Shown here piece by piece: positions 32,678 through 48,775 of a stretch of 64,000 nucleotides of DNA; positions within the stretch are counted from its first letter, which is position 1, and every line of letters begins with the position of its first letter. The DNA is from Candidatus Moraniibacteriota bacterium (GTDB lineage Bacteria; Patescibacteriota; Minisyncoccia; Moranbacterales; UBA1568). The position numbers and the translations under genes were made by a program. The notes below the pieces were generated by a model that did no database searches, was not told the origin of the DNA, and was given only the letters and a program-made list of their open reading frames with translations. The stretch covers positions 69,010-133,009 of the forward strand of contig JAUSGT010000001.1 of NCBI GenBank assembly GCA_030648835.1. The letters are read 5' to 3'.

Positions 32678-32717
32678 AAAGCCAGGGGCAGGCATAATAA
32701 ATATACTGAGCTGTGAA
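32678..32717 (+). repeat. Family-R 40-bp repeat, copy 1
   Basis: AAAGCCAGGGGCAGGCATAATAAATATACTGAGCTGTGAA. Five copies, all coding-capable for (K)AK(G/S)R(H/Q)(D/N/S)KYTE(Q/L)*. Confidence 0.6.
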
Positions 32718-32739
32718 TCGATAGAATAGTATTGATGAT

Positions 32740-35882: not shown

Positions 35883-35922
35883 AAAGCCAAGAGCAGACAG
35901 AGTAAATATACTGAGCAGTGAA
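35883..35922 (+). repeat. Family-R repeat, copy 2 (variant AGCAGACAGAG)
   Basis: AAAGCCAAGAGCAGACAGAGTAAATATACTGAGCAGTGAA, followed by the conserved leader GTATTAAGGACTGGAAGAAATAAGAAT ATG. Confidence 0.6.
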
Positions 35923-35949
35923 GTATTAAGGACTGGAAGAAATAAGAAT

Positions 35950-36873: not shown

Positions 36874-36913
36874 AAAGCCAAGAGCAGACAGAGTAAATAT
36901 ACTGAGCAGTGAA
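36874..36913 (+). repeat. Family-R repeat, copy 3
   Basis: Identical to the copy-2 variant. Immediately preceded by a stop codon in the peptide frame, so not part of an intact gene. Confidence 0.6.
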
Positions 36914-36963: not shown

Positions 36964-37044
36964 GATTGGGTGGGTGGGGGGAGGTGGTATGATGGGTGTA
37001 CCAGAGGGGAAGATTCGTGTATTAAATAATAATATTTCAATACT

Positions 37045-37443
37045 ATGAAAGGATTCAACACACACATAGAAAAAGATACGCTCGAGAACACCGACTTCCG
37101 TCGCGTGCTTTACACAGGCTCGCACAGCCAGCTGGTATTGATGAGTTTGAAACCCAAAGAGGAGATCGGCCTCGAAACACATACCGGAAACGACCAGTTT
37201 TTTCGGATAGAAAAAGGCCACGGCATGTGCATCATCGACGGCCATGAGTATGCACTCGCCGATGGTTCGGCTATCGTGGTCCCGTCCGGCGCCAAACACA
37301 ATATCATCAACACGTCGGAGACAGAAGACCTCAAGCTCTATACCGTCTACTCTCCGGCGCACCATAAGGACGGCATTGTCAGGGCTACCAAAGAAGAAGC
37401 CGAAGCCAACGAAGCGGAGTTCGACGGCACAACAACCGAATAA
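37045..37443 (+). CDS. Cupin-domain protein, copy 2 (duplicate)
   Basis: Near-identical to 32257..32655, including ~80 bp of upstream leader and ~60 bp downstream. Confidence 0.75.
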   Translation: MKGFNTHIEKDTLENTDFRRVLYTGSHSQLVLMSLKPKEEIGLETHTGNDQFFRIEKGHGMCIIDGHEYALADGSAIVVPSGAKHNIINTSETEDLKLYTVYSPAHHKDGIVRATKEEAEANEAEFDGTTTE

Positions 37444-37465
37444 ATATTGGCCACTGCCAAAAATG

Positions 37466-37505
37466 AAAGCCAAGGGCAGGCATGATAAATATACTGAGCT
37501 GTGAA
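37466..37505 (+). repeat. Family-R repeat, copy 4
   Basis: AAAGCCAAGGGCAGGCATGATAAATATACTGAGCTGTGAA, then the leader GTATTAAGGATTGGAAGAAATAAAATT ATG. Confidence 0.6.
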
Positions 37506-37532
37506 GTATTAAGGATTGGAAGAAATAAAATT

Positions 37533-38018
37533 ATGAAAAAAACTAGTAGCAAGGGGATTGTTGGCGTATCTGGTGAATATTTTGTGGCTGCGGAACTTTC
37601 TCAGCGAGGCATTGTGGCTACCTTGACTCTCAAAAACACTCCCTATATCGACATACTTGCCACAAACTTAGAAAAGGGCACAACCGCCAACATTCAGGTG
37701 AAAACTATGTCTGTCGATAACAATGCTGGTTGGAGATTGGGGGAAAAAGATGGATTGCCTTCAAATATAAAGAATCACTTTTATGTGCTCGTTGATTTAC
37801 ATGGACCTGGTAAATTGCCCGAATATATAATCATACCCAAGAAAGTATTAGCAGATTTTATAAATAAGGGTCATGCTGAATGGCTTTTAGGAAAAAAGAA
37901 GGATGGCTCCTCTAGAAAAAATACTGGCGTTAGAGTTTTTGATCCAAACAGAAAAGTGTCTACTCGAAAATTTGCCGAAAAATACGTAAATAATTGGAGC
38001 ATATTAGATTTGTGGTAG
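37533..38018 (+). CDS. PD-(D/E)xK nuclease-fold protein (putative)
   Basis: GVSGEYFVAAEL...IDILATN...ANIQVKT matches an E...D...(Q/E)xK arrangement. Internal start of the 37482 ORF. Confidence 0.45.
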   Translation: MKKTSSKGIVGVSGEYFVAAELSQRGIVATLTLKNTPYIDILATNLEKGTTANIQVKTMSVDNNAGWRLGEKDGLPSNIKNHFYVLVDLHGPGKLPEYIIIPKKVLADFINKGHAEWLLGKKKDGSSRKNTGVRVFDPNRKVSTRKFAEKYVNNWSILDLW

Positions 38019-38026
38019 TAAAAGTT

Positions 38027-38374
38027 ATGGATAAGATAAAAGATTTGACTAAAAGAATACTAGCTTTCCGCAATGCTCGGGACTGGAAGCAATTTCACAA
38101 TCCGAAAGACGTGGCGCTCTCGCTGGTTTTGGAAGCGGCGGAGGTTATGGAACATTTCCAGTGGAAGAACCCGGCGGAAATTGAAGAGTATGTAAAAAAG
38201 CATAAGAAAGATATAGGCGAAGAATTGGCTGATGTTTTCAATTGGGTGTTGCTGCTGAGTCATGATTTGGGGATAGATATTGTAGAAGCGGCCAAAAAGA
38301 AAGTTAAAAAGAACGAAAAAAAGTACCCCGTAGAAAAAGCCAAAGGCAGGCATGATAAATATACTGAGCAGTGA
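38027..38374 (+). CDS. MazG-like nucleoside triphosphate pyrophosphohydrolase (small all-alpha NTP-PPase)
   Basis: ILAFRNARDWKQFHNPKDVALSLVLEAAEVMEHFQWK...ELADVFNWVLLLSHDLGIDI. The C-terminal tail is encoded by Family-R copy 5. Confidence 0.75.
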   Translation: MDKIKDLTKRILAFRNARDWKQFHNPKDVALSLVLEAAEVMEHFQWKNPAEIEEYVKKHKKDIGEELADVFNWVLLLSHDLGIDIVEAAKKKVKKNEKKYPVEKAKGRHDKYTEQ

Positions 38375-38375
38375 A
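38336..38375 (+). repeat. Family-R repeat, copy 5 (forms C-terminus of MazG-like gene)
   Basis: AAAGCCAAAGGCAGGCATGATAAATATACTGAGCAGTGAA. Confidence 0.6.
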
Positions 38376-38420
38376 TTGATTACCTCGCTGAGCAGGATTT
38401 CGCTAGGAATGTTAGGATAT

Positions 38421-38436
38421 ACGTAACGAGTTACGT
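38421..38436. promoter_or_regulatory. Palindrome ACGTAACGAGTTACGT upstream of AbrB-like gene (autoregulatory operator candidate)
   Basis: A 7-2-7 dyad. A related leader (GGTAGGATGGACGTAACGAGTTAGGTAACAGG) precedes the kinase-like gene. Confidence 0.4.
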
Positions 38437-38456
38437 AACAGGTTACATAACAAACT

Positions 38457-38615
38457 ATGAACAAAGAAATTAGAAAACTCACTAAGTTAGGGGGAAAATC
38501 CATCGGGCTGACCTTGCCGATTGAATTAGTTCGGGAGTTGGGGTGGAGGGAAAAACAGAAAGTGACCGTCAAGCGTGTTCGTGGGGGTGTGATGATTAAA
38601 GATTGGAAGAAATAG
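38457..38615 (+). CDS. AbrB/MazE/SpoVT-family small DNA-binding protein (antitoxin- or controller-like), 52 aa
   Basis: LTKLGGKSIGLTLPIELVRELGWREKQKVTVK fits the swapped-hairpin beta-barrel family. Not in the ORF track (under 60 aa). Confidence 0.45.
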   Translation: MNKEIRKLTKLGGKSIGLTLPIELVRELGWREKQKVTVKRVRGGVMIKDWKK

Positions 38616-38658
38616 GACTAATCTTGCAATAATATTAATGACGTGTTATTATTAGTGT

Positions 38659-39621
38659 ATGTCTGGTAAACAAGAAATAAAAATAATTCAAGAAACTTTC
38701 GACATAAACGCTATTTATGCAAGACGTGTTTTTGCTTCGGTGAATATTTCAAACTTTTTAGAGGAAGCGAGACAAATTATAACGAGCAAACCAAAGCCAT
38801 TTGTGAAATGGGTTGGGGGGAAGCGACAATTACTCAAGCAGTTTCGACTCCTTGATCTTTATCCACCGGACGAGTTTGATCCTGAGAAGGCAAGATATTT
38901 TGAGCCGTTTGTAGGGGGAGGCGCAGTGTTCTTTGATTTACTTCCGAGAAAGGCTTATTTGTCTGATCTTAATTTTGAGCTTGTCACAACTTATAATGTT
39001 ATTAAAAATGATGTTGAAAAGTTGATTACATCGTTAAAAAAACAAAAATATAATAAAGAGTATTATCTGAAAATCCGTTCAAAAAATCCTGAAAGGTTGT
39101 CTGATCTACAAATTGCTACTCGTTTTATATTTTTGAATCGCGCCGGCTTCAATGGGATGTATCGTGTAAATAGTAAAGGAGGGTTTAATGTTCCTTTCGG
39201 TAAATACGAGAATCCGCTTATTTGTGATGAAAAAAATCTTCGGAAAGTTTCGAAGGCGTTGCAGAATGTTGAAATAAAACACCAAGACTATAAGTTCGTT
39301 TTGAAGAAAGCAAAGAAAAGAGACTTTATATATTTTGATCCGCCATATCATCCAGTAAGTAAAACGGCAGCGTTTACTTCATATACCTCACAAGGTTTTG
39401 GGGAAAAAGAACAAATAGAATTACGTGATACATTTTTGAAACTTCACAAGAGAGGTTGTTTTGTGATGCTTTCAAATTCTGATGCGCCTTTTATTAATAA
39501 AATTTATTCTGAAATTAAAAAATATGGTGTCAGAATTAATAAGGTTGAAGCAGGGCGCGCAATAAATTCAAAGGCTTCTGGAAGGGGTAAGATCACAGAA
39601 ATATTGGTAACTAACTATTAA
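38659..39621 (+). CDS. Dam-family N6-adenine DNA methyltransferase (alpha class)
   Basis: FVKWVGGKRQLL, EPFVGGGAVFF, FLNRAGFNGMYRVN, IYFDPPYHP and LSNSD align with Dam motifs. Confidence 0.9.
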   Translation: MSGKQEIKIIQETFDINAIYARRVFASVNISNFLEEARQIITSKPKPFVKWVGGKRQLLKQFRLLDLYPPDEFDPEKARYFEPFVGGGAVFFDLLPRKAYLSDLNFELVTTYNVIKNDVEKLITSLKKQKYNKEYYLKIRSKNPERLSDLQIATRFIFLNRAGFNGMYRVNSKGGFNVPFGKYENPLICDEKNLRKVSKALQNVEIKHQDYKFVLKKAKKRDFIYFDPPYHPVSKTAAFTSYTSQGFGEKEQIELRDTFLKLHKRGCFVMLSNSDAPFINKIYSEIKKYGVRINKVEAGRAINSKASGRGKITEILVTNY

Positions 39622-39625
39622 TCTT

Positions 39626-40384
39626 ATGGCAAATAATAATTCGTGGAATAAAATTTTCGAAGATAATAATATTTTAGAGCACGATTTTTCTAAAAGCCCT
39701 TTTTATTTGTCTGCAGAAATGATAAAAAAATCAGTACAAGAGTTTAAGAAAACTAATGAGAAAGAGGTGCGTTGCTTATGTAAGATGGATACGCGAGAAA
39801 GCGTTCCAGAAATAATGAGAAGAAATGGATTGGTTTTGTTGCCAGTCAAAAATAAATATTATGTGATAGTAAACGGCGAAGGATATGTCGATATACCTGA
39901 AATCAATAGTGAAGCCGAAATCTACAACACTAAATTGGATTTTGATTTAGACACAGCGAAAATTGGAAACTCAGAAATGCAGCATCTTGATTTTGCTTAT
40001 GCTTCAAGCCTTATTAGAACATTCATGAGCGATCCTTCGCTAGTTCTAACAATTAGAGGGAGGAAATATACACCAGAGTTTAGTTATAAAATTGGTAACA
40101 ATATAATTGATACGAAGGGTGTTCAAACTGAAGTTGATGCCGGTTATGAAGGAAAGGACAAGATTGTTTTGATAGAAGCAAAGAACTCATCTACTAAAAA
40201 TACAATCATTAGACAATTGTATTATCCATATAGACAATGGGCAGAACACACAAAAAAGGAAGTCTTCTTATTATTTTTCGAGAAGAGGATTGATGAATAT
40301 TTGATATGGCAATACAGGTTTGCTGATAAAGACAGCTACGATTCTATTAAATTAGTTAGATCTAAAAAATATAAAATTGTTTAA
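39626..40384 (+). CDS. Putative type II restriction endonuclease (between two MTases; MboI/DpnII-like gene order)
   Basis: Sits between two DNA MTases in an M-R-M arrangement and has a PD-(D/E)xK-like VDAGYEGKDKIVLIEAK. Family not verified. Confidence 0.5.
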   Translation: MANNNSWNKIFEDNNILEHDFSKSPFYLSAEMIKKSVQEFKKTNEKEVRCLCKMDTRESVPEIMRRNGLVLLPVKNKYYVIVNGEGYVDIPEINSEAEIYNTKLDFDLDTAKIGNSEMQHLDFAYASSLIRTFMSDPSLVLTIRGRKYTPEFSYKIGNNIIDTKGVQTEVDAGYEGKDKIVLIEAKNSSTKNTIIRQLYYPYRQWAEHTKKEVFLLFFEKRIDEYLIWQYRFADKDSYDSIKLVRSKKYKIV

Positions 40385-41137
40385 GTGTCTGAAAAAGAGA
40401 TAAAACTGCATCCGGATGAGTTTGAAATGGAGTGCACTACAGTATGGGCATTTCCTCGTCGTGGTAATTGGGCTACACACAAGTCGGATTGGCGTGGTAA
40501 TTGGGCGCCAGAAGTTGCTCGAAATTTGATATTGCGTTATTCAAAGGAGGGTGATCATCTACTAGATTGCATGATCGGTGGTGGAACAACGGCAATAGAG
40601 GCAAAAATATTGAATCGTCATATTACTTGCGTTGATGTTAATGAAGAAGCTCTCAAACGGACAAGAGACGCTTTGAAATTTGATGTTGATAACAAAGCAA
40701 AACAACGAATAATAAAGTGCGATGCTCGAAACATGAGTTTTATCAAGGACGGAGAAATAGATTTTGTTCTCACTCATCCACCATACGCGGATATTATAAA
40801 ATATAGTGATGGAAAATTAGAGGATGACTTATCAGGTATACATAATATAGATGCCTTTGTAGATGAGATGGAGAAAGTTATCAAAGAAATGTTTCGAGTA
40901 CTAAAGAAAGGAAAATATTGTGCGATTTTGATGGGGGATACAAGACGGAATAAAATGTATCAGCCTCTCGCATTTAAGGTAATGGGTAGATGTCTGAGCG
41001 CAGGATTTGTCTTGAAAGAAGATATTATTAAAAGGCAGTTTAACTGTAAAGCAACTGGTTTTTGGGTGAATAGGTCAAAAGAGAGCAACTTTCTTTTAAT
41101 TATGCATGAACACTTATTTATTTTTCAGAAAATTTGA
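40385..41137 (+). CDS. DNA methyltransferase, N4/N6 family (second MTase of R-M module)
   Basis: AdoMet motif LLDCMIGGGTT and catalytic LTHPPYADI. Confidence 0.8.
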   Translation: MSEKEIKLHPDEFEMECTTVWAFPRRGNWATHKSDWRGNWAPEVARNLILRYSKEGDHLLDCMIGGGTTAIEAKILNRHITCVDVNEEALKRTRDALKFDVDNKAKQRIIKCDARNMSFIKDGEIDFVLTHPPYADIIKYSDGKLEDDLSGIHNIDAFVDEMEKVIKEMFRVLKKGKYCAILMGDTRRNKMYQPLAFKVMGRCLSAGFVLKEDIIKRQFNCKATGFWVNRSKESNFLLIMHEHLFIFQKI

Positions 41138-41250
41138 GATGCCAAAAAAGATACCATGAAAGATGTGAAAGATAAAGTAAAAAGATTTATTAATTGCATA
41201 GGTGAAAAACGTGGTGACGTTAATGAAATATTGATCATAAATTATTAAAT

Positions 41251-42924
41251 ATGCTTAACCTATTTAAAACTAAAAAAATACTTCAAGGCCCAGACTGGTC
41301 TTTTCAAGACGAAGCCGTAAAAAAAGTAGTTTCTGATTTTTTAAAGGAGCCACAAAGCAAAAAATTATTAGTCATCCCAACTGGAGGGGGGAAAACTATT
41401 GTTGGTTTTAAGGTCATTAACGAACTAATCGAAAAAGGCTTTCTTAAAAATGGCAAAAAAGCAGTTTGGATAGTTCATACAAAATGGTTAAAAAAACAAA
41501 CTGAACTAAAGCTAGTTTCAGCAATTGAAAAATTTCATTTTAATAAAGAAATACTCAGTATTCTTGAAATAAGAATGAAGTCAGATGCGCGTAATAATAT
41601 TTTTTTAACTCAAAAATCAAAAGAATATAAGATGGTAGTTATTGATGAGGCTCACCATTCAGCTGCAAATACTTACAAAGATTTTTTTAGACCTGATGTA
41701 AATGTACTTGGTCTAACAGCTACGCCCACAAGAACTGATGATCTCACGCTTGATTTTAAGGATATATCGTATGCAATTACTTTTAACGAACTTGTAAAAA
41801 GAAAAGTTATACTTTTACCAAAATTTATTACTGTAGAAACTGGGTTAACTATTGACGCCAGATCATTAAATTACTATTCGGAAAATGATTTTATTAAATT
41901 CGATATTGATGAAAGAAATAATATTATTGCCGAGAAAATATTCTTACTTAAAAGAAATAATAAAAGATCTTTTAATAAAATAATAATTTTCGTTGGATCT
42001 AATGCACATGTTAAGGAATTGTATGAAATACTGAAGAGAAAAAATAAGTTTTATGGAAACTTGTTCAAGTATGTTGGATACATATATAGTGGTGATAATA
42101 ATGATTTAAATATAGATAATGACTCATATTTAGAGAAACAACAGGGAATCAGCTCGTCAATATTAGTTAATTGTATGATTTTAAATGAAGGATACGACGA
42201 TCCTTCTATTGACACGGTAATAATGGCTACACCAAGTAACTCTATACTTTACTATATGCAATGCGTCGGGCGCGTGGTGCGTAATCCGGGTGGGTATAGC
42301 TCGAATGCAAATGTGGTGGAGATGGTAGATAAATTACCAAACATAAATTATAGGATTGATAACCGCTGGCTTTTTGCTGAAATTTCAGATCTCCTAGAGC
42401 CCGAGGTCATTGACGTTAGTTATGACTTTAACAACAAGGCCTCAGTTATTAGGAAGATTCTTTTGGAACACAAGGTCAAAGCTAAATATATTGATTTATT
42501 TGATGAGAAACAAAGCTTAGAGGATTTCACCTTACTCCTATTTGCAGACGCGCCAAATTATGAAGCTTCGACATGGAAGCCAATATATTTATTTGAAAAA
42601 AATCGTTCCAAATATATAGATGCTTTTAATAAAATCTCTGCTAATGTTTCTGAATATTCACGCTATAATGATGAATTTGTTTTTTTCCAGACTCTCAATT
42701 TTTCTAAAGACAATTATTATTTTAGGTATCCAGAAATGCGAATATCTCTCATACTAGCCCTTGAAAGAGCTAATAATTTAAAAAATTTAAAACAAAAGGT
42801 TGATTGTATTAAATACTATACTTTTCATGAAACACAATATAAAGCTTGGTGGAAAATTATTATTTCTTTGCTATTTAAATCATTAACTAAAATTTATGCA
42901 AACCTTAAAGGAAGTAGAGCTTAA
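41251..42924 (+). CDS. SF2 DEAH-box helicase (ResIII-like)
   Basis: Motif I VIPTGGGKT, II VIDEAHH, III LGLTATP and VI QCVGRVVR. Confidence 0.8.
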   Translation: MLNLFKTKKILQGPDWSFQDEAVKKVVSDFLKEPQSKKLLVIPTGGGKTIVGFKVINELIEKGFLKNGKKAVWIVHTKWLKKQTELKLVSAIEKFHFNKEILSILEIRMKSDARNNIFLTQKSKEYKMVVIDEAHHSAANTYKDFFRPDVNVLGLTATPTRTDDLTLDFKDISYAITFNELVKRKVILLPKFITVETGLTIDARSLNYYSENDFIKFDIDERNNIIAEKIFLLKRNNKRSFNKIIIFVGSNAHVKELYEILKRKNKFYGNLFKYVGYIYSGDNNDLNIDNDSYLEKQQGISSSILVNCMILNEGYDDPSIDTVIMATPSNSILYYMQCVGRVVRNPGGYSSNANVVEMVDKLPNINYRIDNRWLFAEISDLLEPEVIDVSYDFNNKASVIRKILLEHKVKAKYIDLFDEKQSLEDFTLLLFADAPNYEASTWKPIYLFEKNRSKYIDAFNKISANVSEYSRYNDEFVFFQTLNFSKDNYYFRYPEMRISLILALERANNLKNLKQKVDCIKYYTFHETQYKAWWKIIISLLFKSLTKIYANLKGSRA

Positions 42925-44044
42925 GTTTGATCAACTTTTACTTGACCCAAATAATCCTCGTTTTGCTAAGCATAGCGATGAGCTTGTTGCTGAAGATGAC
43001 TATGAGGAAATGCAGTCCGAGACCTTTTCAAAGATGATTCAGAGGGAAAACAACTTTGAAATTGCGGAGCTTGCAAAAAATATTAGCAAAAATGGGTACC
43101 TAGGTTTTGACAGGATGTTTGTTAAAAAATTAAAAGGATCTAAGTTTCTAGTTATTGAAGGCAATAGAAGGTTAGCTGCCATTTATTTTCTTCTAAAGCA
43201 GGAAGAATCACACCGCACAAGAGGAGCTCTCGCCCCAGAAATTAAAAAAACATTTTTAAAGATACCCTGTGTTGATCTTACAAATTGGGAAACGGAAGAT
43301 ATAAAGAGGTTGCTTGGCCTCAGACACTATGATTCTGTAAAAGATTGGAGGCCCCTGCCAGGTTCATTCAATCTTTTCTTAACGTATATGGCGGAATATG
43401 CAAAAGTGAACAATATTGAAATCTTGAATAGCGACCACGCAAAGCATTTTATTTATGATCAAAATATTAGTAGAAAGATAGCAGATATCTATGCAATGAA
43501 GGAAGCGAGGGTTAAGTCAATGATCTTAACTTACAGAGTATATCTTCAAGTTTTGGAATATCACAACGATATCAACTTTGAAACAACGAATCTTTTTTCC
43601 ATAATTGAAGAGACTATAAGTAAGGAAATTTTGAGGAAAAGATTTGAGTTTGATCCATCCGCGGGCCAGTTTTCTGAAAATGGACTAGAATTGTTTATTG
43701 ACTTATGTATTGGAAAAGATGGAAGTGCCCCAGTTATAACTGAAGTGTCACGCGGCGAATCTACTCTAAGAGACTATGCTTATGTTCTACAGGAAGGGAG
43801 TGACTACGATCGTGAACGAATAGAGCTGAACAAAGAAAAAAGTGGTGATGTGAAAGCAGATGTTAAATCAAGTCAAAATCAAAGAAATTTAATAAATACT
43901 CTGAAGCAAATTAAATTAGAATTAGGAAAAATTAATCTTGACCAGATAAAGATTGATGATATTACAGACCGTGAAAAAGAAATTATCGATGATCTACAGG
44001 AAACACTGAACAAGCTAAAAGGGGCATCAGGGGGAAAACTTTAA
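42896..44044 (+). CDS. ParB/Srx-fold nuclease-like domain protein
   Basis: LLLDPNNPRF (ParB box I-like) and VIEGNRRLAAIYFL (GxRR motif). 29-nt overlap with the helicase gene. Confidence 0.7.
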   Translation: MQTLKEVELKFDQLLLDPNNPRFAKHSDELVAEDDYEEMQSETFSKMIQRENNFEIAELAKNISKNGYLGFDRMFVKKLKGSKFLVIEGNRRLAAIYFLLKQEESHRTRGALAPEIKKTFLKIPCVDLTNWETEDIKRLLGLRHYDSVKDWRPLPGSFNLFLTYMAEYAKVNNIEILNSDHAKHFIYDQNISRKIADIYAMKEARVKSMILTYRVYLQVLEYHNDINFETTNLFSIIEETISKEILRKRFEFDPSAGQFSENGLELFIDLCIGKDGSAPVITEVSRGESTLRDYAYVLQEGSDYDRERIELNKEKSGDVKADVKSSQNQRNLINTLKQIKLELGKINLDQIKIDDITDREKEIIDDLQETLNKLKGASGGKL

Positions 44045-44049
44045 ATAGT

Positions 44050-44991
44050 ATGAGTGATCTTTACTTTCGAAAAACTTACAGTGAATTCGTTGAGTTTGTT
44101 TCCAACACTAATGATGAACTTATTATCTTATGTCCGTATATAAAACTAGAACCATTAAAATTGCTATTAGAAAAAGTTAAACCAGGAATAAAGGTAATAG
44201 TTGTAGCAAGATGGAAAATTAGTGATTTGGTATTTGGGAGTTCTGATATTGAGGTTTTTGAATATTTGAAAAGTCTTAATCATAGTTTTTACATTAACAA
44301 TAAAATACACCTTAAGGTCATTATTAAAGATAAAAGGAATATATTAATTGGAAGTGCAAATATAACAGGATCTGGGCTTGGGCTGTTTGATAGTTCAAAT
44401 ATTGAGGCTATTGCCATCGAGAGCTTAGATGAGAAGTATTTACCATCAGTATATTCAATACTAAGAGAATCAATAGAAGTCGATGATGTTTTGGTTAATA
44501 CAATATCTGAAAAGTTAGAAGGGTTTCAAAATGTTAGAGAAGAAAAAGACAAAATTACTGCTGAATTGGGGGAATTAGAAAAACAGATATTTATAAAAAA
44601 GAAAAAAGGGATTTTGGTTTATGATTTTCCTTTTACAGGATCGCCGGCAGTACTCCTTAAAGCTATAAATGAAAAAGATATTAATGATACTGTCCAACAT
44701 GATCTTCAGGTATTAAAATTAACTACTAGAGAGATTAATCTTAGTTTATTGAGGGAGGCATTTTTAACGTCAGACGCCTATATTTGGCAAGAACAAAATA
44801 TCCCAGAAGAAGCTCTCTTTGGAAAGTATTCGGAGTTACTTCATAATGCTCTAATTGATGATCCTAAGCCTTATCGAAAACAGGTAAAGGAGTTAGTAGT
44901 AAATATGTTTGTTTGGACATCAGAACTTTCAGACGATTATGTTATAAAAAAATATAATCATACCCAATCTCTAGTCAGGAGACAAAATTAA
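44050..44991 (+). CDS. PLD-family (HKD) nuclease-like protein
   Basis: A single HKD motif HLKVIIKDKRNILIGSAN (H-x-K-x4-D-x6-GSxN). Confidence 0.75.
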   Translation: MSDLYFRKTYSEFVEFVSNTNDELIILCPYIKLEPLKLLLEKVKPGIKVIVVARWKISDLVFGSSDIEVFEYLKSLNHSFYINNKIHLKVIIKDKRNILIGSANITGSGLGLFDSSNIEAIAIESLDEKYLPSVYSILRESIEVDDVLVNTISEKLEGFQNVREEKDKITAELGELEKQIFIKKKKGILVYDFPFTGSPAVLLKAINEKDINDTVQHDLQVLKLTTREINLSLLREAFLTSDAYIWQEQNIPEEALFGKYSELLHNALIDDPKPYRKQVKELVVNMFVWTSELSDDYVIKKYNHTQSLVRRQN

Positions 44992-44999
44992 TATACGGA

Positions 45000-45467
45000 A
45001 TGAAGAAAAGTATTACTGATATCAATTGGATGAGGTTCAAAACGACTAAAGGTCAAGAGTTTGTTGTGGGTGTAGATTTTACCGCAGAAGACGCATTCAT
45101 TAAAGCTAAAGAATTGCGACAAGAAGGAAAAGCAATAGATGCTCTAGGTGTAATCGATGTATCACTTTATTTAGATTGGAATAGGCCTGCTGCACATAAT
45201 ATTAAGGCAAGCATTTTACTTACTTTAAAGCGATTTGGTGAAGCAATTAGTTCGTGTGATGAAGCAATTCGACTGAATCCGAATTTGGCGGAGTCTTTTA
45301 ATAATAAAGCAGTAATATTAAAGGCATCTGAGAATTATGAGGATGCACTTACCTTGATTGAGAAAGCCCTTGATTTAAATCCAGATAATCCCGCACTTAT
45401 TTATAATAAGGAGAGTATTTTAGAAGCTCTGCGAAATCAAAATGGTCTAAATAGGAAAATGGGCTAG
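45000..45467 (+). CDS. TPR-repeat protein
   Basis: Three or more TPR-like repeats (AISSCDEAIRLNPNLAESFNNKAVIL...ALDLNPDNPALIYNK). Confidence 0.7.
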   Translation: MKKSITDINWMRFKTTKGQEFVVGVDFTAEDAFIKAKELRQEGKAIDALGVIDVSLYLDWNRPAAHNIKASILLTLKRFGEAISSCDEAIRLNPNLAESFNNKAVILKASENYEDALTLIEKALDLNPDNPALIYNKESILEALRNQNGLNRKMG

Positions 45468-45543
45468 GTACTTTTTTCTTGCAAAAGGAGTACAAAGGCG
45501 GCACAACTGAATAGCGAACTATCGAGAGAGTGGCGGTGGGGGG

Positions 45544-45572
45544 CTTGCTATTTTCATAAAAGTATGCTATAA
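45544..45572 (+). promoter_or_regulatory. Sigma70-like promoter (TTGCTA-17-TATAAT)
   Basis: Near-consensus -35 and a perfect -10 with 17-nt spacing, about 125 nt upstream of the AbiEii-like gene. Confidence 0.5.
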
Positions 45573-45654
45573 TGGGTGTGTAAAAGAAGAAAAAAATAAA
45601 AACCATCCAAAATATTAAAAGAAGTTAGGAAAGAGCCATATTCACAAGATATTC

Positions 45655-45687
45655 CACACCCCAGTCTTCTGGGGTGTTTTTATTTAT
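45655..45687 (+). terminator. Rho-independent terminator-like hairpin between promoter and AbiEii-like gene
   Basis: ACACCCCAG tctt CTGGGGTGT followed by TTTTTATTTATT, 12 nt before the start codon. Confidence 0.5.
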
Positions 45688-45699
45688 TAACCCACTAGT

Positions 45700-46908
45700 A
45701 TGTTAGGTAAAGAAGAAATTGATCAGAAAGCGGCGGAATTTGGTTTAAATCCTGTAGATGTAGAAAAGGATTATGTTTATGGATGGCTTTTAAATTCCAT
45801 TTACTCGGACTCTTCTTTGGGGGACCTGCTTGTGTTAAAAGGTGGAAATGCTTTAAGAAAAGGTTATCTGCTAGGGACACGGTTTTCTAAAGACCTAGAT
45901 TTTTCTCTAGAAAAAGGAATACAAATAGATTTTCTTCACGAAGAATTAGATAAAGTTTGTTCAGTAGTCAATGCTCAAACTCAAGTAAAATTTGAACTAG
46001 ATCGGACTAGGGTTGAACCTAAGAATCTGCCGATTGCTAACCTTGATGTGTTGGAGGCAAGACTCTATTTTAAGGGTTTTTATGGGGAAGAGACTATTTC
46101 TCTTAAAACGCAACTAGATATCACCCAGTTTGATAAGATCTACCTCCCAGTTCAGTCAAGGAAAATTCTGCATCCTTATTCAGACGCAGAAGCTTGTAGT
46201 GGAAATATCAAATGTCAAAAAGCTGAAGAAATTGTTGCTTCTAAACTTAATAGTCTTCTCCATAGAAGGAAAGTCTGTGATTTATTTGATCTTCTTAAGT
46301 CTACGATGTTTACCAACGATGTTTTGTTGGATAGATCAGAGGTAGTTAAAACTTTTCTGAAGAAGACTATTTATGAGGCTACTCCAGATACACCAAAACA
46401 ACAGCTTCTTAGCACTCCTTTGGAAGAGTTCCGTCCATTTTGGGGAAGTCTGGTGACTCCAAATGCTAGTATCATCCAATTTGATGATGTGGTGGCAAAC
46501 TTCGGAGTTTTAATTAGTAGTTTTTTTGACTTGGTAGCTCCTTTATCTCCACAATTTGTTCCAGCTGGAGCTTTTGGTGGCTCCAGAAGATATGGGTCGT
46601 CTATGATGCGGTATGGGAGTGTGCCTAGTTTTTTCTCAGCTGGTATACGAAATATCATTATTAATGCCGGAAGAACTCAGAAGCTTATTCAGCTTACCTA
46701 TGACAACTATACAAGGTTAGTAGAACCGTATTCAATGGAGTATTATGTTCGAAAATCAGACGGGGTAGGATTGGAATATTTTTGGGGATATGATACAACT
46801 GGTGGAAAATCAGGAGAACAGTCGATAAAGAGGTTCATTTGTGACAAAATACAATTTGCCAAAGAAACAGATAGGGGCTTTAATCCAAGGTTTGCGGTTG
46901 AATTTTAA
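45700..46908 (+). CDS. AbiEii/DUF1814-family nucleotidyltransferase (abortive-infection toxin-like) with ~100-aa C-terminal extension
   Basis: EKDYVYGWLL...LVLKGGNALRKGYLLGTRFSKDLDFS is the AbiEii signature. No AbiEi-like gene is adjacent. Confidence 0.8.
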   Translation: MLGKEEIDQKAAEFGLNPVDVEKDYVYGWLLNSIYSDSSLGDLLVLKGGNALRKGYLLGTRFSKDLDFSLEKGIQIDFLHEELDKVCSVVNAQTQVKFELDRTRVEPKNLPIANLDVLEARLYFKGFYGEETISLKTQLDITQFDKIYLPVQSRKILHPYSDAEACSGNIKCQKAEEIVASKLNSLLHRRKVCDLFDLLKSTMFTNDVLLDRSEVVKTFLKKTIYEATPDTPKQQLLSTPLEEFRPFWGSLVTPNASIIQFDDVVANFGVLISSFFDLVAPLSPQFVPAGAFGGSRRYGSSMMRYGSVPSFFSAGIRNIIINAGRTQKLIQLTYDNYTRLVEPYSMEYYVRKSDGVGLEYFWGYDTTGGKSGEQSIKRFICDKIQFAKETDRGFNPRFAVEF

Positions 46909-46922
46909 TTAGATAGGAAAGT

Positions 46923-47528
46923 ATGAATAATGCCTTTGATGAAATTTTAGAGAAATCGAAACGAGATATGAAAGAAATCTCGGATGAATTTAATGTCAAA
47001 TTTAGAGAATTCGATACTAAGTTGGAATCATCACGGAAACTAAGTATTTCAGCAATATATCAAATAGTTATTCTGTCATCTAGTATCGTTGGATTTTCAG
47101 TGTCCCTTTTTTCGATCCCTGTCTTGCAGTCTAGATTAAATTTGGATAACCTCCGTTTTTCTTGGTATTTTTTTATGTCGGTTATTATGTTAGGATTCTT
47201 TATTCTAATTTTTGAGGGAAGAGCAAAATATGCAAAAACATGGAAAAATTTTCAAGTGAGTAGATTTCCAGATGCGGGTGATTATAATTACACGATTAAA
47301 GAAAAAATTATTGCAACATCTATTGTTATATTAACTATCTTTTATCCTGCGAATTTAATATTCAACAGGGTTTACAAGGAGGAAAGTGAAAAAGCTTTTA
47401 AGCAAAGAATAAACGGATTTGTAGTACACAAATTAGCGAGTATAGAAAACGCATTAATTTTTCTAGAAAACATCCTTTTTATATTATTTATATGTGGATT
47501 AATTATACTAGTTTCAAGTTTTTCATAG
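46923..47528 (+). CDS. Hypothetical membrane protein (201 aa)
   Basis: Four predicted TM segments, AT-rich codon usage like the island. Confidence 0.45.
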   Translation: MNNAFDEILEKSKRDMKEISDEFNVKFREFDTKLESSRKLSISAIYQIVILSSSIVGFSVSLFSIPVLQSRLNLDNLRFSWYFFMSVIMLGFFILIFEGRAKYAKTWKNFQVSRFPDAGDYNYTIKEKIIATSIVILTIFYPANLIFNRVYKEESEKAFKQRINGFVVHKLASIENALIFLENILFILFICGLIILVSSFS

Positions 47529-47669
47529 ATGAAGAAAAGAGAGTCAGATACCTTTTTGATACGAATTTCTCAGTCTCTGGGCTTCCTCCATAGGCGGACA
47601 GGGGGTTTTTGTTTGGGTGTATACTGAACAAATGCAGATGTCATTCAATAATTAAGGCAATAAAAGAAT

Positions 47670-47924
47670 ATGGATGAGCACGTTGAGAAGGAAGGACTCA
47701 AACATCTTGAGAACATAGAGCAGGACCTCGACGAGATAAAAGAACGCACGCCGACGCCGCGGCGTGCTTTTACCTATGGTCTGTGGCAAGGGGCAGGGGC
47801 ACTCATCGGAGGCATTCTGGCGCTGACTCTCTTGGGCTGGGCATTATCGTTCTTCGGGATCATTCCCGGCTTTGCCGATGTTGCCAAGTACTTCCAAGAT
47901 ATTGTGAGCAACTTTCGCCGCTAG
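47670..47924 (+). CDS. Small membrane protein (84 aa)
   Basis: Charged N-terminus plus a double TM hairpin (GLWQGAGALIGGILALTLLGWALSFFGII). Confidence 0.45.
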   Translation: MDEHVEKEGLKHLENIEQDLDEIKERTPTPRRAFTYGLWQGAGALIGGILALTLLGWALSFFGIIPGFADVAKYFQDIVSNFRR

Positions 47925-47952
47925 CCAATCCAACAAAAACTCAAGAAAAAAA

Positions 47953-48213
47953 ATGAGCTATTATCTCTATATTCTCAAATGTGCGGATGGGACGTTGTAT
48001 ACGGGAATCACCGTTGATTTGAAGAGAAGAATTATCGAACACAATAGTTCGGCGCTCGGAGCGAAGTACACGCGGGGTCGTCGGCCGGTCACACTTATTT
48101 TTTCCAAAAAATTTCGCACGCGTTCCACTGCATCCGTTGCCGAATCCCGTATCAAGAAACTTTCTCGCGAAGAAAAACTCGATGTAGTAAAAAAATATGC
48201 AGATCGAATATGA
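47953..48213 (+). CDS. GIY-YIG nuclease superfamily protein (UPF0213-like)
   Basis: YYLYILKCADGTLYTGITVDLKRRIIEHN. Confidence 0.75.
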   Translation: MSYYLYILKCADGTLYTGITVDLKRRIIEHNSSALGAKYTRGRRPVTLIFSKKFRTRSTASVAESRIKKLSREEKLDVVKKYADRI

Positions 48214-48775
48214 GGCGACGTTTCCAGATGTAGAGAAGGAAGTCGTGCGCGAAAAATTGAAACAAGCCGGAGCGGTTTTGGTGCGGCCGGAATTCTTGCA
48301 GAAGCGGGTGGTATTCGATATGCCTCTCGGGCATGAGCTTGCCGGCGGCTGGGTGCGGGTACGCGATGAGGGAGACAGAGTGACTATGAGCATCAAGATC
48401 GTGAGCGGCGATAAGATAGACGATCAGAAAGAAATGTGTCTCACAGTGGATAGTTTCGAACAAGGGGAAGCATTTCTCACGACGCTCGGATGCCGGAAAA
48501 AATCGTACCAGGAAACCAAGCGTGAACTGTGGACGCTCGATGGTACGGAGATCACCATTGATGAGTGGCCGTTTCTCAATCCATTTGTCGAAGTGGAAGG
48601 TAAGTCCGAAGCAATGGTGAAACGAGTGGCGGAGCGCATCGGTTTCGATTATCGGCAAGCGCTTTTCGGAGCGGTGGATGTACTCTATATAAGGCAGTAT
48701 CCGCATCTGACTTTCAAGCGTATCAACAAAACGCCGCGCATCGTTTTCGCTGGTGAAAATTCTTTTCTCAATTAG
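48197..48775 (+). CDS. CYTH-domain (triphosphate tunnel metalloenzyme) protein
   Basis: N-terminal MQIEYEATF (EXEXK-like), RVR...ExK pattern and the length. 17-nt overlap with the GIY-YIG gene. Confidence 0.65.
   Translation: MQIEYEATFPDVEKEVVREKLKQAGAVLVRPEFLQKRVVFDMPLGHELAGGWVRVRDEGDRVTMSIKIVSGDKIDDQKEMCLTVDSFEQGEAFLTTLGCRKKSYQETKRELWTLDGTEITIDEWPFLNPFVEVEGKSEAMVKRVAERIGFDYRQALFGAVDVLYIRQYPHLTFKRINKTPRIVFAGENSFLN

What the first reader, a model, noticed from the sequence alone, without database searches (positions are those of the whole stretch)
41251..45467. Four-gene operon (SF2 DEAH helicase, ParB/Srx-fold, PLD-HKD nuclease, TPR) in an AT-rich island: candidate uncharacterised defense system
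Seen: four + strand genes that overlap or abut each other (helicase end 42924 over ParB start 42896; gaps of 5 and 8 nt thereafter). Helicase motifs I/II/III/VI, the ParB GxRR box and one HKD motif are all readable in the sequence. Context: the operon sits directly after an M-R-M restriction-modification module and before an AbiEii-like gene, inside a ~9-kb segment that is visibly much more AT-rich than the rest of the window. Inference: helicase + ParB-like NTPase/nuclease + PLD nuclease is a typical architecture for anti-phage systems (e.g. PLD in DISARM DrmC, ParB-like DUF262 in GmrSD/SspE). This exact four-gene split combination does not match a named system I can recognise.
Basis: partly seen in the sequence, partly recalled or inferred. 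Interest (0 to 1): 0.8.

Follow-up and report, generated by a model that had tools for sequence, protein, structure and literature searches.

The report
Dam-linked helicase–ParB–PLD restriction module
Three of the four flagged genes (helicase, ParB-like protein, PLD nuclease) form a rare, unnamed gene module that is almost always next to a Dam-type DNA methylase, so it most likely cuts unmarked foreign DNA; no experiment has tested this.

Summary
All four ORFs, their overlap and gaps, the helicase, GxRR and HKD motifs, the flanking genes and the AT-rich island are as described.

The interpretation needs correcting in two ways.

1. The TPR gene is not part of the conserved unit. It occurs only in this window. 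Relatives carry HEPN, EVE plus PD-(D/E)XK, HNH or DUF1232 genes in that position.
2. The module is probably not autonomous. A Dam-family (D12) methyltransferase lies within 4 kb in 11 of 13 distinct helicase–ParB loci, against 5 of 135 loci with more distant ParB-like genes (p = 2.5e-11). In one locus its stop overlaps the helicase start. The window's Dam gene (38659-39621) is 68-75% identical to those methylases.

More distant versions of the module sit beside phosphorothioate (Dnd or Ssp-like) modification genes. In the Ssp-like versions a GHKL ATPase replaces ParB. Helicase::ParB fusion proteins exist.

Structure models show a ParB/Srx fold followed by an HTH domain, and a Nuc-like HKD nuclease followed by a winged helix.

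PADLOC, NCBIfam and the literature searches give no named system. The best reading is the restriction half of an ATP-dependent, restriction-modification-like system: a new variant of a known kind. Defence activity and sensitivity to methylation are inferred, not shown.

The parts
38659..39621 (+). Dam-family (D12 class) N6-adenine DNA methyltransferase, the proposed modification (self-marking) partner of the module
   Evidence: Pfam MethyltransfD12 2.5e-61. NCBIfam TIGR00571 'dam' 290.5 bits against a cut-off of 114.85. It is 70% identical to the D12 gene whose stop overlaps the HEL start in L089, 68% to L257 and 75% to L166. A D12 gene lies within 4 kb of HEL-ParB in 11 of 13 loci.
39626..40384 (+). 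Type II restriction endonuclease-like gene (DUF6996/DUF6997) sitting between the two methylases. It is not conserved with the module.
   Evidence: Pfam DUF6997 6.7e-51 and DUF6996 3.2e-20. PADLOC REase_II 1.5e-30. Present only in the window lineage (L010/L166, L257). Only 24-39% identical there, while the flanking MTases are 68-85% identical. It is 252 aa against 423 aa and lacks DUF7226.
40385..41137 (+). Second methyltransferase (N6_N4 class). It makes an M-R-M cassette with two methylases, as in the DpnII cassette of L002.
   Evidence: Pfam N6_N4_Mtase 7.5e-23. PADLOC MTase_II 1.1e-89. 83-85% identical in L166 and L257, 70% in L255.
41251..42924 (+). SF2 (ResIII / Rad25 / RadD-like) DEAH helicase-translocase with a family-specific C-terminal region
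   Evidence: Pfam ResIII 1.6e-16, DEAD and Helicase_C. Closest NCBIfam models are the EcoAI-type HsdR and RadD, both far below cut-off. Motifs I, II, III and VI plus YRIDNxWL..SDxLEP (42349-42402) are conserved in 18 relatives. Fused in frame to the ParB-like protein in P0173, P0176 and P0239.
42896..44044 (+). ParB/Srx-fold protein: NTP-binding-type N-domain with an invariant GNRR box, then an HTH domain, then a helical C-terminal region
44050..44991 (+). Single-HKD (Nuc-like) PLD-superfamily nuclease with a C-terminal winged-helix domain, the proposed DNA-cutting effector
45000..45467 (+). Small TPR protein, a lineage-specific accessory gene in the variable position after PLD. It is not part of the conserved module.
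   Evidence: Pfam TPR_1 1.7e-15 and related families. No PADLOC hit. No homologue in the same position in any related locus.
45656..45677 (+). Terminator-like hairpin with a T-run, 189 nt after the TPR stop. It could be the end of the operon transcript, or of a short transcript from the promoter-like site at 45545-45573.
   Evidence: Consensus scan and sequence. No Rfam match.

Best explanation
Genes 41251-44991 (SF2 helicase, ParB/Srx-HTH protein, HKD-winged-helix nuclease) are most likely the restriction half of an ATP-dependent, restriction-modification-like defence module. Its modification half is most likely the Dam-family methyltransferase at 38659-39621. The TPR gene is a local add-on. 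Proposed mechanism: (1) the Dam-family enzyme marks host DNA, probably at GATC. (2) The ParB-like subunit, which works physically with the helicase, is an NTP-gated DNA-binding or loading subunit. (3) On DNA that lacks the mark, the helicase translocates using ATP. (4) The helicase delivers or licenses the dimeric Nuc-like HKD nuclease, whose winged helix holds DNA, and the nuclease cuts. Shown here: the gene content, folds and catalytic motifs; conserved gene order; linkage to modification genes; helicase::ParB fusions; exchange of the nuclease and of the middle NTPase. Inferred: anti-phage function, protection by methylation, the order of events, and which nucleotide ParB binds.
For: Conserved core: every ParB homologue of 33-57% identity whose locus was read directly follows a helicase homologue. 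Fusion evidence: P0173 (905 aa) and P0239 (914 aa) are in-frame helicase::ParB fusions, with PLD as the next gene or further downstream. Linkage to modification genes: a D12 MTase lies within 4 kb in 11 of 13 distinct loci against 5 of 135 controls, p = 2.5e-11. In L089 the D12 stop overlaps the HEL start, no type II REase is present, and that D12 is 70% identical to the window's. In L007, L009 and L087 an HTH-Dam pair converges on HEL-ParB and a housekeeping gene lies beyond it. The variant with three or four ParB copies abuts dndBCD(E). The P0023 locus reads DndCDE-DUF262-HEL-ParB. Full-length PLD homologues and helicase-core homologues lie beside Ssp-like genes, with a GHKL ATPase in ParB's position. 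Effector exchange: PLD is replaced by an HNH protein in L002, and a PD-(D/E)XK gene abuts HEL in L086. Folds: Nuc, SauUSI and BfiI-like HKD plus winged helix; ParB-N, PadC and KorB-like fold plus HTH. All catalytic motifs are intact. Mobility: the module is AT-rich relative to its flanks in several hosts. Precedent in papers: HKD plus SF2 helicase is described as the restriction component of Type I/III-like systems and as PbeA (PMC10853773); MORC plus SFII helicase plus nuclease plus methylase systems are described in PMC2292703; PD-lambda-5, whose two proteins have PADLOC models that match the N-terminal part of the ParB-like protein and a D12 methylase respectively, is experimentally active (PMC9519451).
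Against: There is no experimental evidence. In the window a complete type II R-M cassette lies between the Dam gene and the helicase, with a 113-nt gap before HEL, so the Dam gene could serve only that cassette. Four of 16 single-ParB loci show no D12 gene (L013, L086, L253, L255); L253 and L255 are short contigs and L013 has a transposase in ParB. No domain was found that is known to read m6A. ParB-superfamily proteins in the Dnd and Dpd systems (DndB, DpdB) act on the modification side (PMC10853773, PMC10164549), so ParB's role could be regulatory. GATC specificity of the methylase is inferred from family membership and from DpnII neighbours only.
Confidence: 0.6

Rival explanations
1. An autonomous, modification-independent defence system. 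Helicase, ParB, PLD and perhaps TPR would sense infection and degrade DNA or cause abortive infection. The methylases would be neighbours only because defence genes cluster.
For: The window has a self-sufficient M-R-M cassette and a 113-nt gap before HEL. Some loci lack a visible D12 gene (L086, L013, L253). Variable accessory genes (HEPN, EVE, AbiEii nearby) are typical of defence islands. PD-lambda-5 was described as 'RM+Abi' (PMC9519451).
Against: D12 enrichment is 11/13 against 5/135. The D12 and HEL genes overlap in L089 with no REase present. More distant versions of the module lie beside two other modification machineries, Dnd and Ssp-like. TPR is not conserved.
Confidence: 0.2
2. A split Type IV (modification-dependent) restriction enzyme of the SauUSI kind. 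PLD plus helicase would attack DNA carrying foreign base modifications, with the ParB-HTH or winged-helix domain as the reader.
Against: No SRA or TRD-type reader domain was found. A Type IV enzyme does not predict tight, sometimes overlapping linkage to Dam, Dnd or Ssp modification genes. The matches to SauUSI-type models cover only the generic catalytic domains.
Confidence: 0.08
3. Not defence. The genes would be a maintenance, partition or repair module of a mobile element: a ParB-type DNA-binding protein, a RadD/XPB-like repair helicase and a plasmid-type Nuc nuclease, with Dam as the element's own anti-restriction methylase.
For: The closest solved helicase by sequence is RadD. Nuc is a plasmid nuclease. 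Serine recombinases lie near L007 and L009. The module is AT-rich and horizontally mobile.
Against: No ParA, replication, conjugation or phage structural genes lie in the window island. In IMG/VR only N-domain hits of at most 35% identity were found, none full length. Exchange of the nuclease, and association with Dnd, Ssp, HEPN and AbiEii genes, fit immunity and not partition.
Confidence: 0.05

Closest known systems
PD-lambda-5 (Vassallo et al. 2022, PMC9519451; PADLOC PD-Lambda-5_A/B)
   Same: It pairs a protein whose PADLOC model matches the ParB-like N-terminal region with a protein whose model matches a D12 methyltransferase. It is experimentally anti-phage, had to be cloned in an mrr-deleted host, and was described as a compact 'RM+Abi'. 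The window's ParB-like protein hits 19 PD-Lambda-5_A models (best 2e-15), and its D12 MTase hits PD-Lambda-5_B at 7.3e-17.
   Different: Only about the first 100 residues align (query 6-118 to model 4-106 of 466). PD-lambda-5 has two genes, with no helicase and no PLD gene. The window MTase matches ordinary type II MTase models far better (1e-95).
PbeA of the PbeABCD / CxC-ABC ATPase systems (PMC6459918; re-annotated in PMC10853773)
   Same: It combines an HKD endoDNase with an SF2 helicase as the restriction component, next to a DNA modification module. The window helicase's best PADLOC hit is PbeA (1.8e-16).
   Different: In PbeA, HKD and helicase are one polypeptide. It works with a CxC ABC ATPase, a DndE cognate and a small protein, none of which is present here. 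Here the two activities are split around a ParB-like protein, and the partner is a Dam methylase.
SauUSI (Type IV ATP-dependent PLD-helicase restriction enzyme, PDB 7clg, PMC3141236)
   Different: SauUSI is a single chain with a C-terminal target-recognition domain. It cuts modified (5mC/5hmC) DNA and has no cognate methylase. There is no ParB component.
MORC/paraMORC restriction-modification systems (Iyer, Abhiman & Aravind 2008, PMC2292703)
   Same: A three-part design: Rad25-like SFII helicase, an NTP-dependent DNA-manipulating ATPase, and a nuclease (RE fold or HKD), often with a methylase. Relatives of this module (Treponema saccharophilum pTS1 in L251, and L170) have a GHKL ATPase in ParB's position.
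   Different: The window has a ParB/Srx-fold protein and no GHKL ATPase. The PLD-winged-helix protein is a separate gene.
DISARM (DrmA/B/C plus DrmMI/MII)
   Same: Methylase plus helicase plus PLD nuclease. The PLD gene gives weak DrmC hits (3.9e-9 in PADLOC; 22.5 bits in NCBIfam).
   Different: The NCBIfam DrmC score is far below its cut-off of 133. There is no DrmA and no DUF1998 DrmB. The methylase class differs.
PDC-M38 (PADLOC candidate system)
   Same: It gives the best PADLOC hit of the ParB-like protein (1.2e-25). The roughly 365-aa ParB-like proteins of the wider family align over their whole length to the N-terminal half of PDC-M38A.
   Different: PDC-M38A is 715 aa with a C-terminal AbiLi/OLD-type ABC ATPase, and it pairs with a protein of about 280 aa, PDC-M38B (instance L150). 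Neither is present here.

Membership tests
ParB/Srx superfamily | ParB N-terminal fold with a GxRR-type phosphate-binding box | tested here: met
ParB/Srx superfamily | CTP (or other NTP) binding and hydrolysis, and clamp behaviour | not testable with these tools
   Fold similarity only. The nucleotide preference is unknown.
PLD/HKD nuclease (Nuc-like) | HxK(x)4D(x)6GSxN motif on a Nuc-type fold | tested here: met
SF2 helicase (ResIII type) | Motifs I, II (DEAH), III and VI, and Pfam ResIII above its cut-off | tested here: met
   ResIII 61.1 bits against 22.5. Motifs conserved in 18 relatives.
Dam-family methyltransferase (TIGR00571) | Score above the curated cut-off | tested here: met
   290.5 bits against 114.85. 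GATC specificity itself was not tested.
PD-lambda-5 | Full-length match to PD-Lambda-5_A | tested here: not met
   Only query residues 6-118 align to model positions 4-106 of 466.
PD-lambda-5 | Two-gene unit of ParB-like protein plus D12-like methylase | tested here: inconclusive
   A D12 MTase is linked, with a PD-Lambda-5_B hit at 7.3e-17. The unit here also has helicase and PLD genes, and the MTase is 1.6 kb away in the window.
PDC-M38 | A protein carries a C-terminal ABC ATPase, and a B protein is present | tested here: not met
   The match covers model positions 9-235 of 715 only. No PDC-M38B hit among 9 island proteins. A true instance (L150) has both.
DISARM | DrmA helicase, DrmB (DUF1998) and DrmC above cut-off | tested here: not met
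   No DrmA or DrmB hits. DrmC NCBIfam 22.5 bits against a cut-off of 133.
PbeABCD / CxC-ABC system | HKD-helicase fusion plus CxC ABC ATPase plus DndE cognate | tested here: not met
   The PbeA hit covers the helicase C-lobe only (1.8e-16). No ABC ATPase or DndE gene in the island.
Type IV SauUSI-like enzyme | Single chain of PLD, helicase and modified-base recognition domain | tested here: not met
   The genes are split. No TRD or SRA-type domain was found in the models or in Pfam.
Type III R-M | Res subunit with a PD-(D/E)XK nuclease, working with a Mod subunit | tested here: not met
   The ResIII ATPase domain is present, but the helicase has no PD-(D/E)XK nuclease domain. PADLOC REase_III scores only 5.5e-5.
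Restriction-modification-like system (functional class) | The methylase protects self DNA from the nuclease module | not testable with these tools
   Supported only by gene linkage.

The most novel reading that the evidence does not exclude
The ParB-like subunit is a nucleotide-gated (possibly CTP-gated) DNA clamp that has been recruited into immunity. It would load on DNA lacking the host's epigenetic mark and license a coupled SF2 translocase and HKD nuclease. It would be functionally interchangeable with MORC-type GHKL clamps, and the same restriction cassette would be able to read three different self-marks: Dam m6A, Dnd phosphorothioate and Ssp phosphorothioate.
Probability: 0.2. Interest if true: 0.85.

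Novelty: new variant of a known kind. Interest (0 to 1): 0.6.

Why it matters
If the reading is right, this is an uncharacterised modification-linked restriction system with an unusual third subunit: a ParB/Srx-fold protein that is fused to the helicase in some organisms.

The same helicase and PLD-winged-helix cassette appears next to three unrelated self-marking machineries (Dam methylation, Dnd phosphorothioation and Ssp-like phosphorothioation). A MORC-like GHKL ATPase takes the place of ParB in the Ssp-like relatives. That makes it a compact test case for two open questions:
- how ATP-dependent restriction complexes couple recognition of a mark to translocation and cutting;
- what ParB-fold NTPases do outside chromosome segregation.

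It could also supply candidate restriction partners for the many 'orphan' Ssp and Dnd modification loci noted in PMC8092258 and PMC10853773. Several of the named source genomes are small-genome, uncultured lineages (Moranbacteria, other Patescibacteria, Saccharibacteria, an archaeon, Undinarchaeota).

Tried and rejected
- **E. coli genomes:** megablast of the operon against complete E. coli genomes gave no match.
- **tRNA and RNA families:** no tRNA gene marks an integration site, and Rfam found nothing over 37000-48500.
- **Named families:** NCBIfam has no family above cut-off for helicase, ParB-like or PLD.
- **Solved structures by sequence:** the ParB-like profile and its N-domain find nothing useful. 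PLD finds only weak PLD hits.
- **Viral contigs (IMG/VR):** only matches to the N-terminal domain at 35% identity or less, none full length.
- **Plasmids:** no close ParB-like homologue, but the search led to the Treponema saccharophilum pTS1 relative.
- **TPR as a core component:** rejected, because no homologue occupies that position in any related locus.
- **The conserved 72-aa protein found before HEL in some relatives:** absent from the window.
- **GATC avoidance in the window:** none seen (270 observed; 243 expected from base composition, 314 from a second-order Markov estimate).
- **P0148 (D12 N-terminus joined to PLD C-terminus):** it lacks the HxK residues. I read it as a deletion or assembly chimera, not as a functional fusion.
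- **SspFGH as the identity of the Ssp-linked relatives:** rejected; SspF, SspG and SspH are different proteins.
- **Literature:** searches for PDC-M38, PD-lambda-5, PbeABCD, SspFGH and combinations of ParB, HKD, helicase and Dam found no description of this gene combination.
- **Not run:** a homology search with the helicase as query, so whether close helicase homologues occur without ParB or GHKL was checked only through the PLD and ParB searches.

Full report
**Observation.** The first two overlap by 29 nt, and the later gaps are 5 and 8 nt. The motifs can be read directly: helicase PTGGGKT, DEAHH, LGLTATP and QCVGRVVR; ParB-like LLLDPNNPRF and VIEGNRRLAA; and a complete PLD motif, HLKVIIKDKRNILIGSAN. 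Upstream lie a D12 MTase, a DUF6996/DUF6997 type II REase and an N6_N4 MTase. Downstream lie an AbiEii gene and a 201-aa ORF with no family match. GC is 0.33 across 38659-47528 and 0.485 in the rest of the window. An identical ParB-like protein is recorded from a Candidatus Moranbacteria MAG. To the right of the island lie a CYTH-domain gene and then the mraZ-rsmH-ftsI-murE cluster.

**What databases call the genes.**
- Pfam finds ResIII, DEAD and Helicase_C for gene 1 and nothing for gene 2. It finds PLDc_2 just under its cut-off for gene 3, and TPR families for gene 4.
- PADLOC gives only partial or generic hits. The helicase hits PbeA (1.8e-16, C-lobe only) and mREase_IV. The ParB-like protein hits PDC-M38A (1.2e-25, model positions 9-235 of 715) and PD-Lambda-5_A (2e-15, first ~100 residues). 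PLD hits DrmC weakly. TPR hits nothing.
- NCBIfam has no family above cut-off for any of the three core proteins. The D12 MTase is a clear Dam-family member, at 290 bits against a cut-off of 114.85.
- A true PDC-M38 instance (L150) has a 708-aa ParB-like protein with an ABC ATPase half, plus a 276-aa B protein. The window system is therefore not PDC-M38.

**Gene neighbourhoods.** I collected relatives in two ways: look-ups of homologue-encoding contigs, and scans of genome and metagenome collections with a ParB-like alignment. I then annotated the loci with profiles built from the window proteins.
- Every ParB homologue of 33-57% identity whose locus was read directly follows a helicase homologue.
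- Sixteen distinct single-ParB loci were found. PLD follows ParB in the window, L004, L010/L166, L012, L086, L089, L253, L255 and L257.
- In L002 an HNH plus DnaA_C-HTH protein takes the place of PLD.
- In L007, L008, L009, L011 and L087 no nuclease gene follows. A conserved protein of about 72 aa precedes HEL in L002, L007, L009, L013 and L087.
- The gene after PLD varies: TPR in this window only; HEPN_Swt1 in L089 and L257; EVE plus PD-(D/E)XK in L010/L166; a small Cys-rich protein in L255; a convergent DUF1232 gene after PLD in L004, L012, L086 and L253, and after ParB in L011.
- TPR is therefore an occupant of a variable position and not a core gene.

**Link to DNA modification.**
- A Dam-family D12 MTase lies within 4 kb in 11 of the first 13 distinct helicase-ParB loci. 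The figure is 5 of 135 for loci with more distant ParB-like genes (Fisher p = 2.5e-11). L257 adds a twelfth case.
- In L089 the order is sigma-70 gene, D12, HEL, ParB, PLD, HEPN. The D12 stop overlaps the HEL start, and no type II REase is present. That D12 is 70% identical to the window's and has the same 320-aa length.
- In L004 the order is D12-HEL-ParB-PLD.
- In L007, L009 and L087 an HTH-D12 pair converges on HEL-ParB. In L007 the next gene beyond it is a P-type ATPase.
- The window's six-gene block D12-REase-N6N4-HEL-ParB-PLD recurs in L010/L166 (its PLD protein is recorded on at least 74 contigs) and in L257. L255 is a truncated contig that shows only the N6N4-to-PLD part of the block.
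- Identities across the complete blocks (L166 and L257) are: D12 68-75%, N6N4 83-85%, PLD 57-63%, HEL 41-44%, ParB 34-38%, REase 24-39%. The methylases are far better conserved than the putative restriction genes.

**More distant versions of the module.**
- A variant with three or four ParB paralogues, HEL-ParB-ParB-ParB-PLD, occurs in L014, L015, L016, L091, L093 and L254. It abuts dndBCD in L014 and L015, and dndC, dndD and dndE in L254.
- The P0023 locus reads DndC-DndD-DndE-DUF262-HEL-ParB.
- Full-length homologues of the PLD-winged-helix protein (HMM positions 5-312 of 316) and helicase-core homologues lie beside Ssp-like genes in L170 (DUF4007, a BrxC/PglY_N-like protein and a PAPS reductase). 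In Treponema saccharophilum pTS1 (L251) they follow a class V aminotransferase gene. In both loci a GHKL (HATPase_c_3) ATPase replaces ParB, and in pTS1 the order is HEL-GHKL-PLD.
- The same helicase and PLD cassette is thus combined with three modification machineries and two kinds of middle NTPase.

**Fusions and rarity.** An exhaustive phmmer search of 1.84 billion cluster representatives found 1003 relatives at E<=1e-3 but only 26 at E<=1e-30. The close clade is therefore rare. Three hits are fusions. P0173 (905 aa) and P0239 (914 aa) carry a complete helicase followed in frame by the ParB-like protein, and P0176 is a partial fusion of the same kind. In L253 the fusion is followed by PLD and DUF1232. 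In L254 the fusion sits inside the Dnd-linked multi-ParB variant. The fusions are strong evidence that helicase and ParB work together as one complex.

**Structures.**
- The invariant residues are D17-P-N-N-P-R22, E88-G-N-R-R92 and H144.
- The helicase's nearest solved relatives by sequence are RadD, a type I R subunit and XPB/Rad25. It also has a family-specific C-terminal motif, YRIDNxWL..SDxLEP.

**Most likely mechanism.** The Dam-family enzyme marks host DNA. GATC is likely, because DpnII REases accompany related D12 genes in L002, L019, L024 and L070. The ParB-HTH subunit, coupled to the SF2 translocase, binds or loads on DNA. On unmarked DNA, ATP-driven translocation delivers or licenses the HKD-winged-helix nuclease. 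Only the anatomy and the linkage are shown here. Defence activity, protection by methylation, the nucleotide ParB uses and the order of steps are all inferred. I put this at about 0.6.

The rivals are:
- an autonomous defence system co-located with R-M genes (0.2);
- a split SauUSI-like Type IV enzyme (0.08);
- a mobile-element maintenance or repair module (0.05).

A caveat within the best reading: ParB-superfamily proteins in the Dnd and Dpd systems (DndB, DpdB) act on the modification side (PMC10853773, PMC10164549). The ParB-like subunit could therefore be regulatory.

[quoted passage not shown] It also describes MORC plus SFII helicase plus nuclease plus methylase systems (PMC2292703). PD-lambda-5, whose two proteins have PADLOC models that match the ParB-like N-terminus and a D12 methylase, is experimentally validated (PMC9519451). 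The window system works like these, but it fails the membership tests for PD-lambda-5, PDC-M38, DISARM, PbeABCD, SauUSI and Type III R-M (see the membership table). I found no paper describing the combination of Dam, helicase, ParB and PLD. The PADLOC copy dates from 2023 and DefenseFinder was not available, so a recent naming cannot be excluded.

**Verdict.** This is a rare, unnamed, modification-linked helicase-ParB-PLD restriction module, a new variant of a known kind. TPR is a local accessory gene, and the upstream Dam methylase is the probable functional partner. Interest 0.6.

Noticed in passing
window 32680-32720, 35885-35945, 36874-36913, 37466-37527, 38336-38375, 38595-38614: A direct repeat of about 40 nt (AAAGCCAAGGGCAGGCATGATAAATATACTGAGCWGTGAA) occurs five times. 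It is often followed by a 20-nt box (ATTAAGGATTGGAAGAAATA). The copies lie at the boundaries of successive small accessory genes (ArsR-type HTH, DUF3800, cupin, a 178-aa ORF, MazG-like, AbrB/MazE-like). The last partial copy ends 45 nt before the Dam gene. Two copies share a longer right arm with a perfect hairpin. This looks like a cassette-boundary or shared promoter element of an accessory-gene array.
   Followed up: partly
window 45545-45700: Between the TPR stop and the AbiEii start lie a good promoter-like site (TTGCTA-17-TATAAT with TG, 45545-45573) and a strong terminator-like hairpin (45656-45677). Together they would give a transcript of roughly 80-100 nt. There is no Rfam match. The AbiEii gene (402 aa) has no AbiEi antitoxin gene upstream.
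   Followed up: partly
window 39626-40384; L166 3126-4397; L257 3527-4336: The type II REase between the two methylases is 252 aa here, against 423 aa in L010/L166. It lacks the DUF7226 C-terminal domain and is only 24-39% identical to its counterparts, while the flanking methylases are 68-85% identical. This suggests fast divergence, replacement or decay of the REase.
   Followed up: partly
L014 8046-19404; L015 2113-13373; L254 3747-13639: A variant with three or four tandem ParB-like paralogues between the helicase and PLD lies directly beside dndB/C/D(E) phosphorothioate genes. A NERD-UvrD helicase gene is next to it in L015 and L254.
   Followed up: partly
L251 (Treponema saccharophilum pTS1, NZ_AP025289.1 145939-151648); L170 2504-12420: Ssp-like genes are followed by a helicase, a GHKL (HATPase_c_3, MzaB-like) ATPase and a full-length homologue of the PLD-winged-helix protein. 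This is a candidate restriction partner for 'orphan' Ssp loci, and it occurs in a cultured organism.
   Followed up: partly
L017 9953-11884 and 91 other loci (cluster 1): The wider family of ParB-like proteins of about 365 aa (25-30% identical to the window protein) is followed by a conserved protein of about 278 aa in 92 of 156 loci. These ParB-like proteins align over their whole length to the N-terminal half of PDC-M38A. The partner gives only weak PDC-S02 hits.
   Followed up: partly
L002 6095-6361, L007 8098-8382, L009 8170-8391, L013 8162-8380, L087 8155-8376: A conserved small protein of about 72 aa (RFKRLA..RTN..L.KLR.LSNCSNRSAY.YSE.DI.KIF) precedes the helicase in the relatives with a short helicase and no PLD. 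It has no Pfam family and is absent from the window.
   Followed up: partly
L013 9980-12127: An ISL3-family transposase gene immediately follows a ParB-like ORF truncated at 267 aa, so the insertion appears to interrupt it. No D12 gene is visible at this locus, which looks like a decaying copy.
   Followed up: no
P0148 (357 aa, 2.9-kb contig): A chimeric protein: the first ~130 residues are from a D12 methylase and the last ~225 from the PLD protein, without the HxK residues. It is probably a deletion of HEL-ParB or an assembly artefact.
   Followed up: partly
window 47746-47767: A GC-rich palindromic hairpin that reads as a terminator on both strands lies inside the 84-aa ORF 47670-47924. It sits at the right-hand edge of the AT-rich island, just before GC returns to about 0.48.
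   Followed up: no
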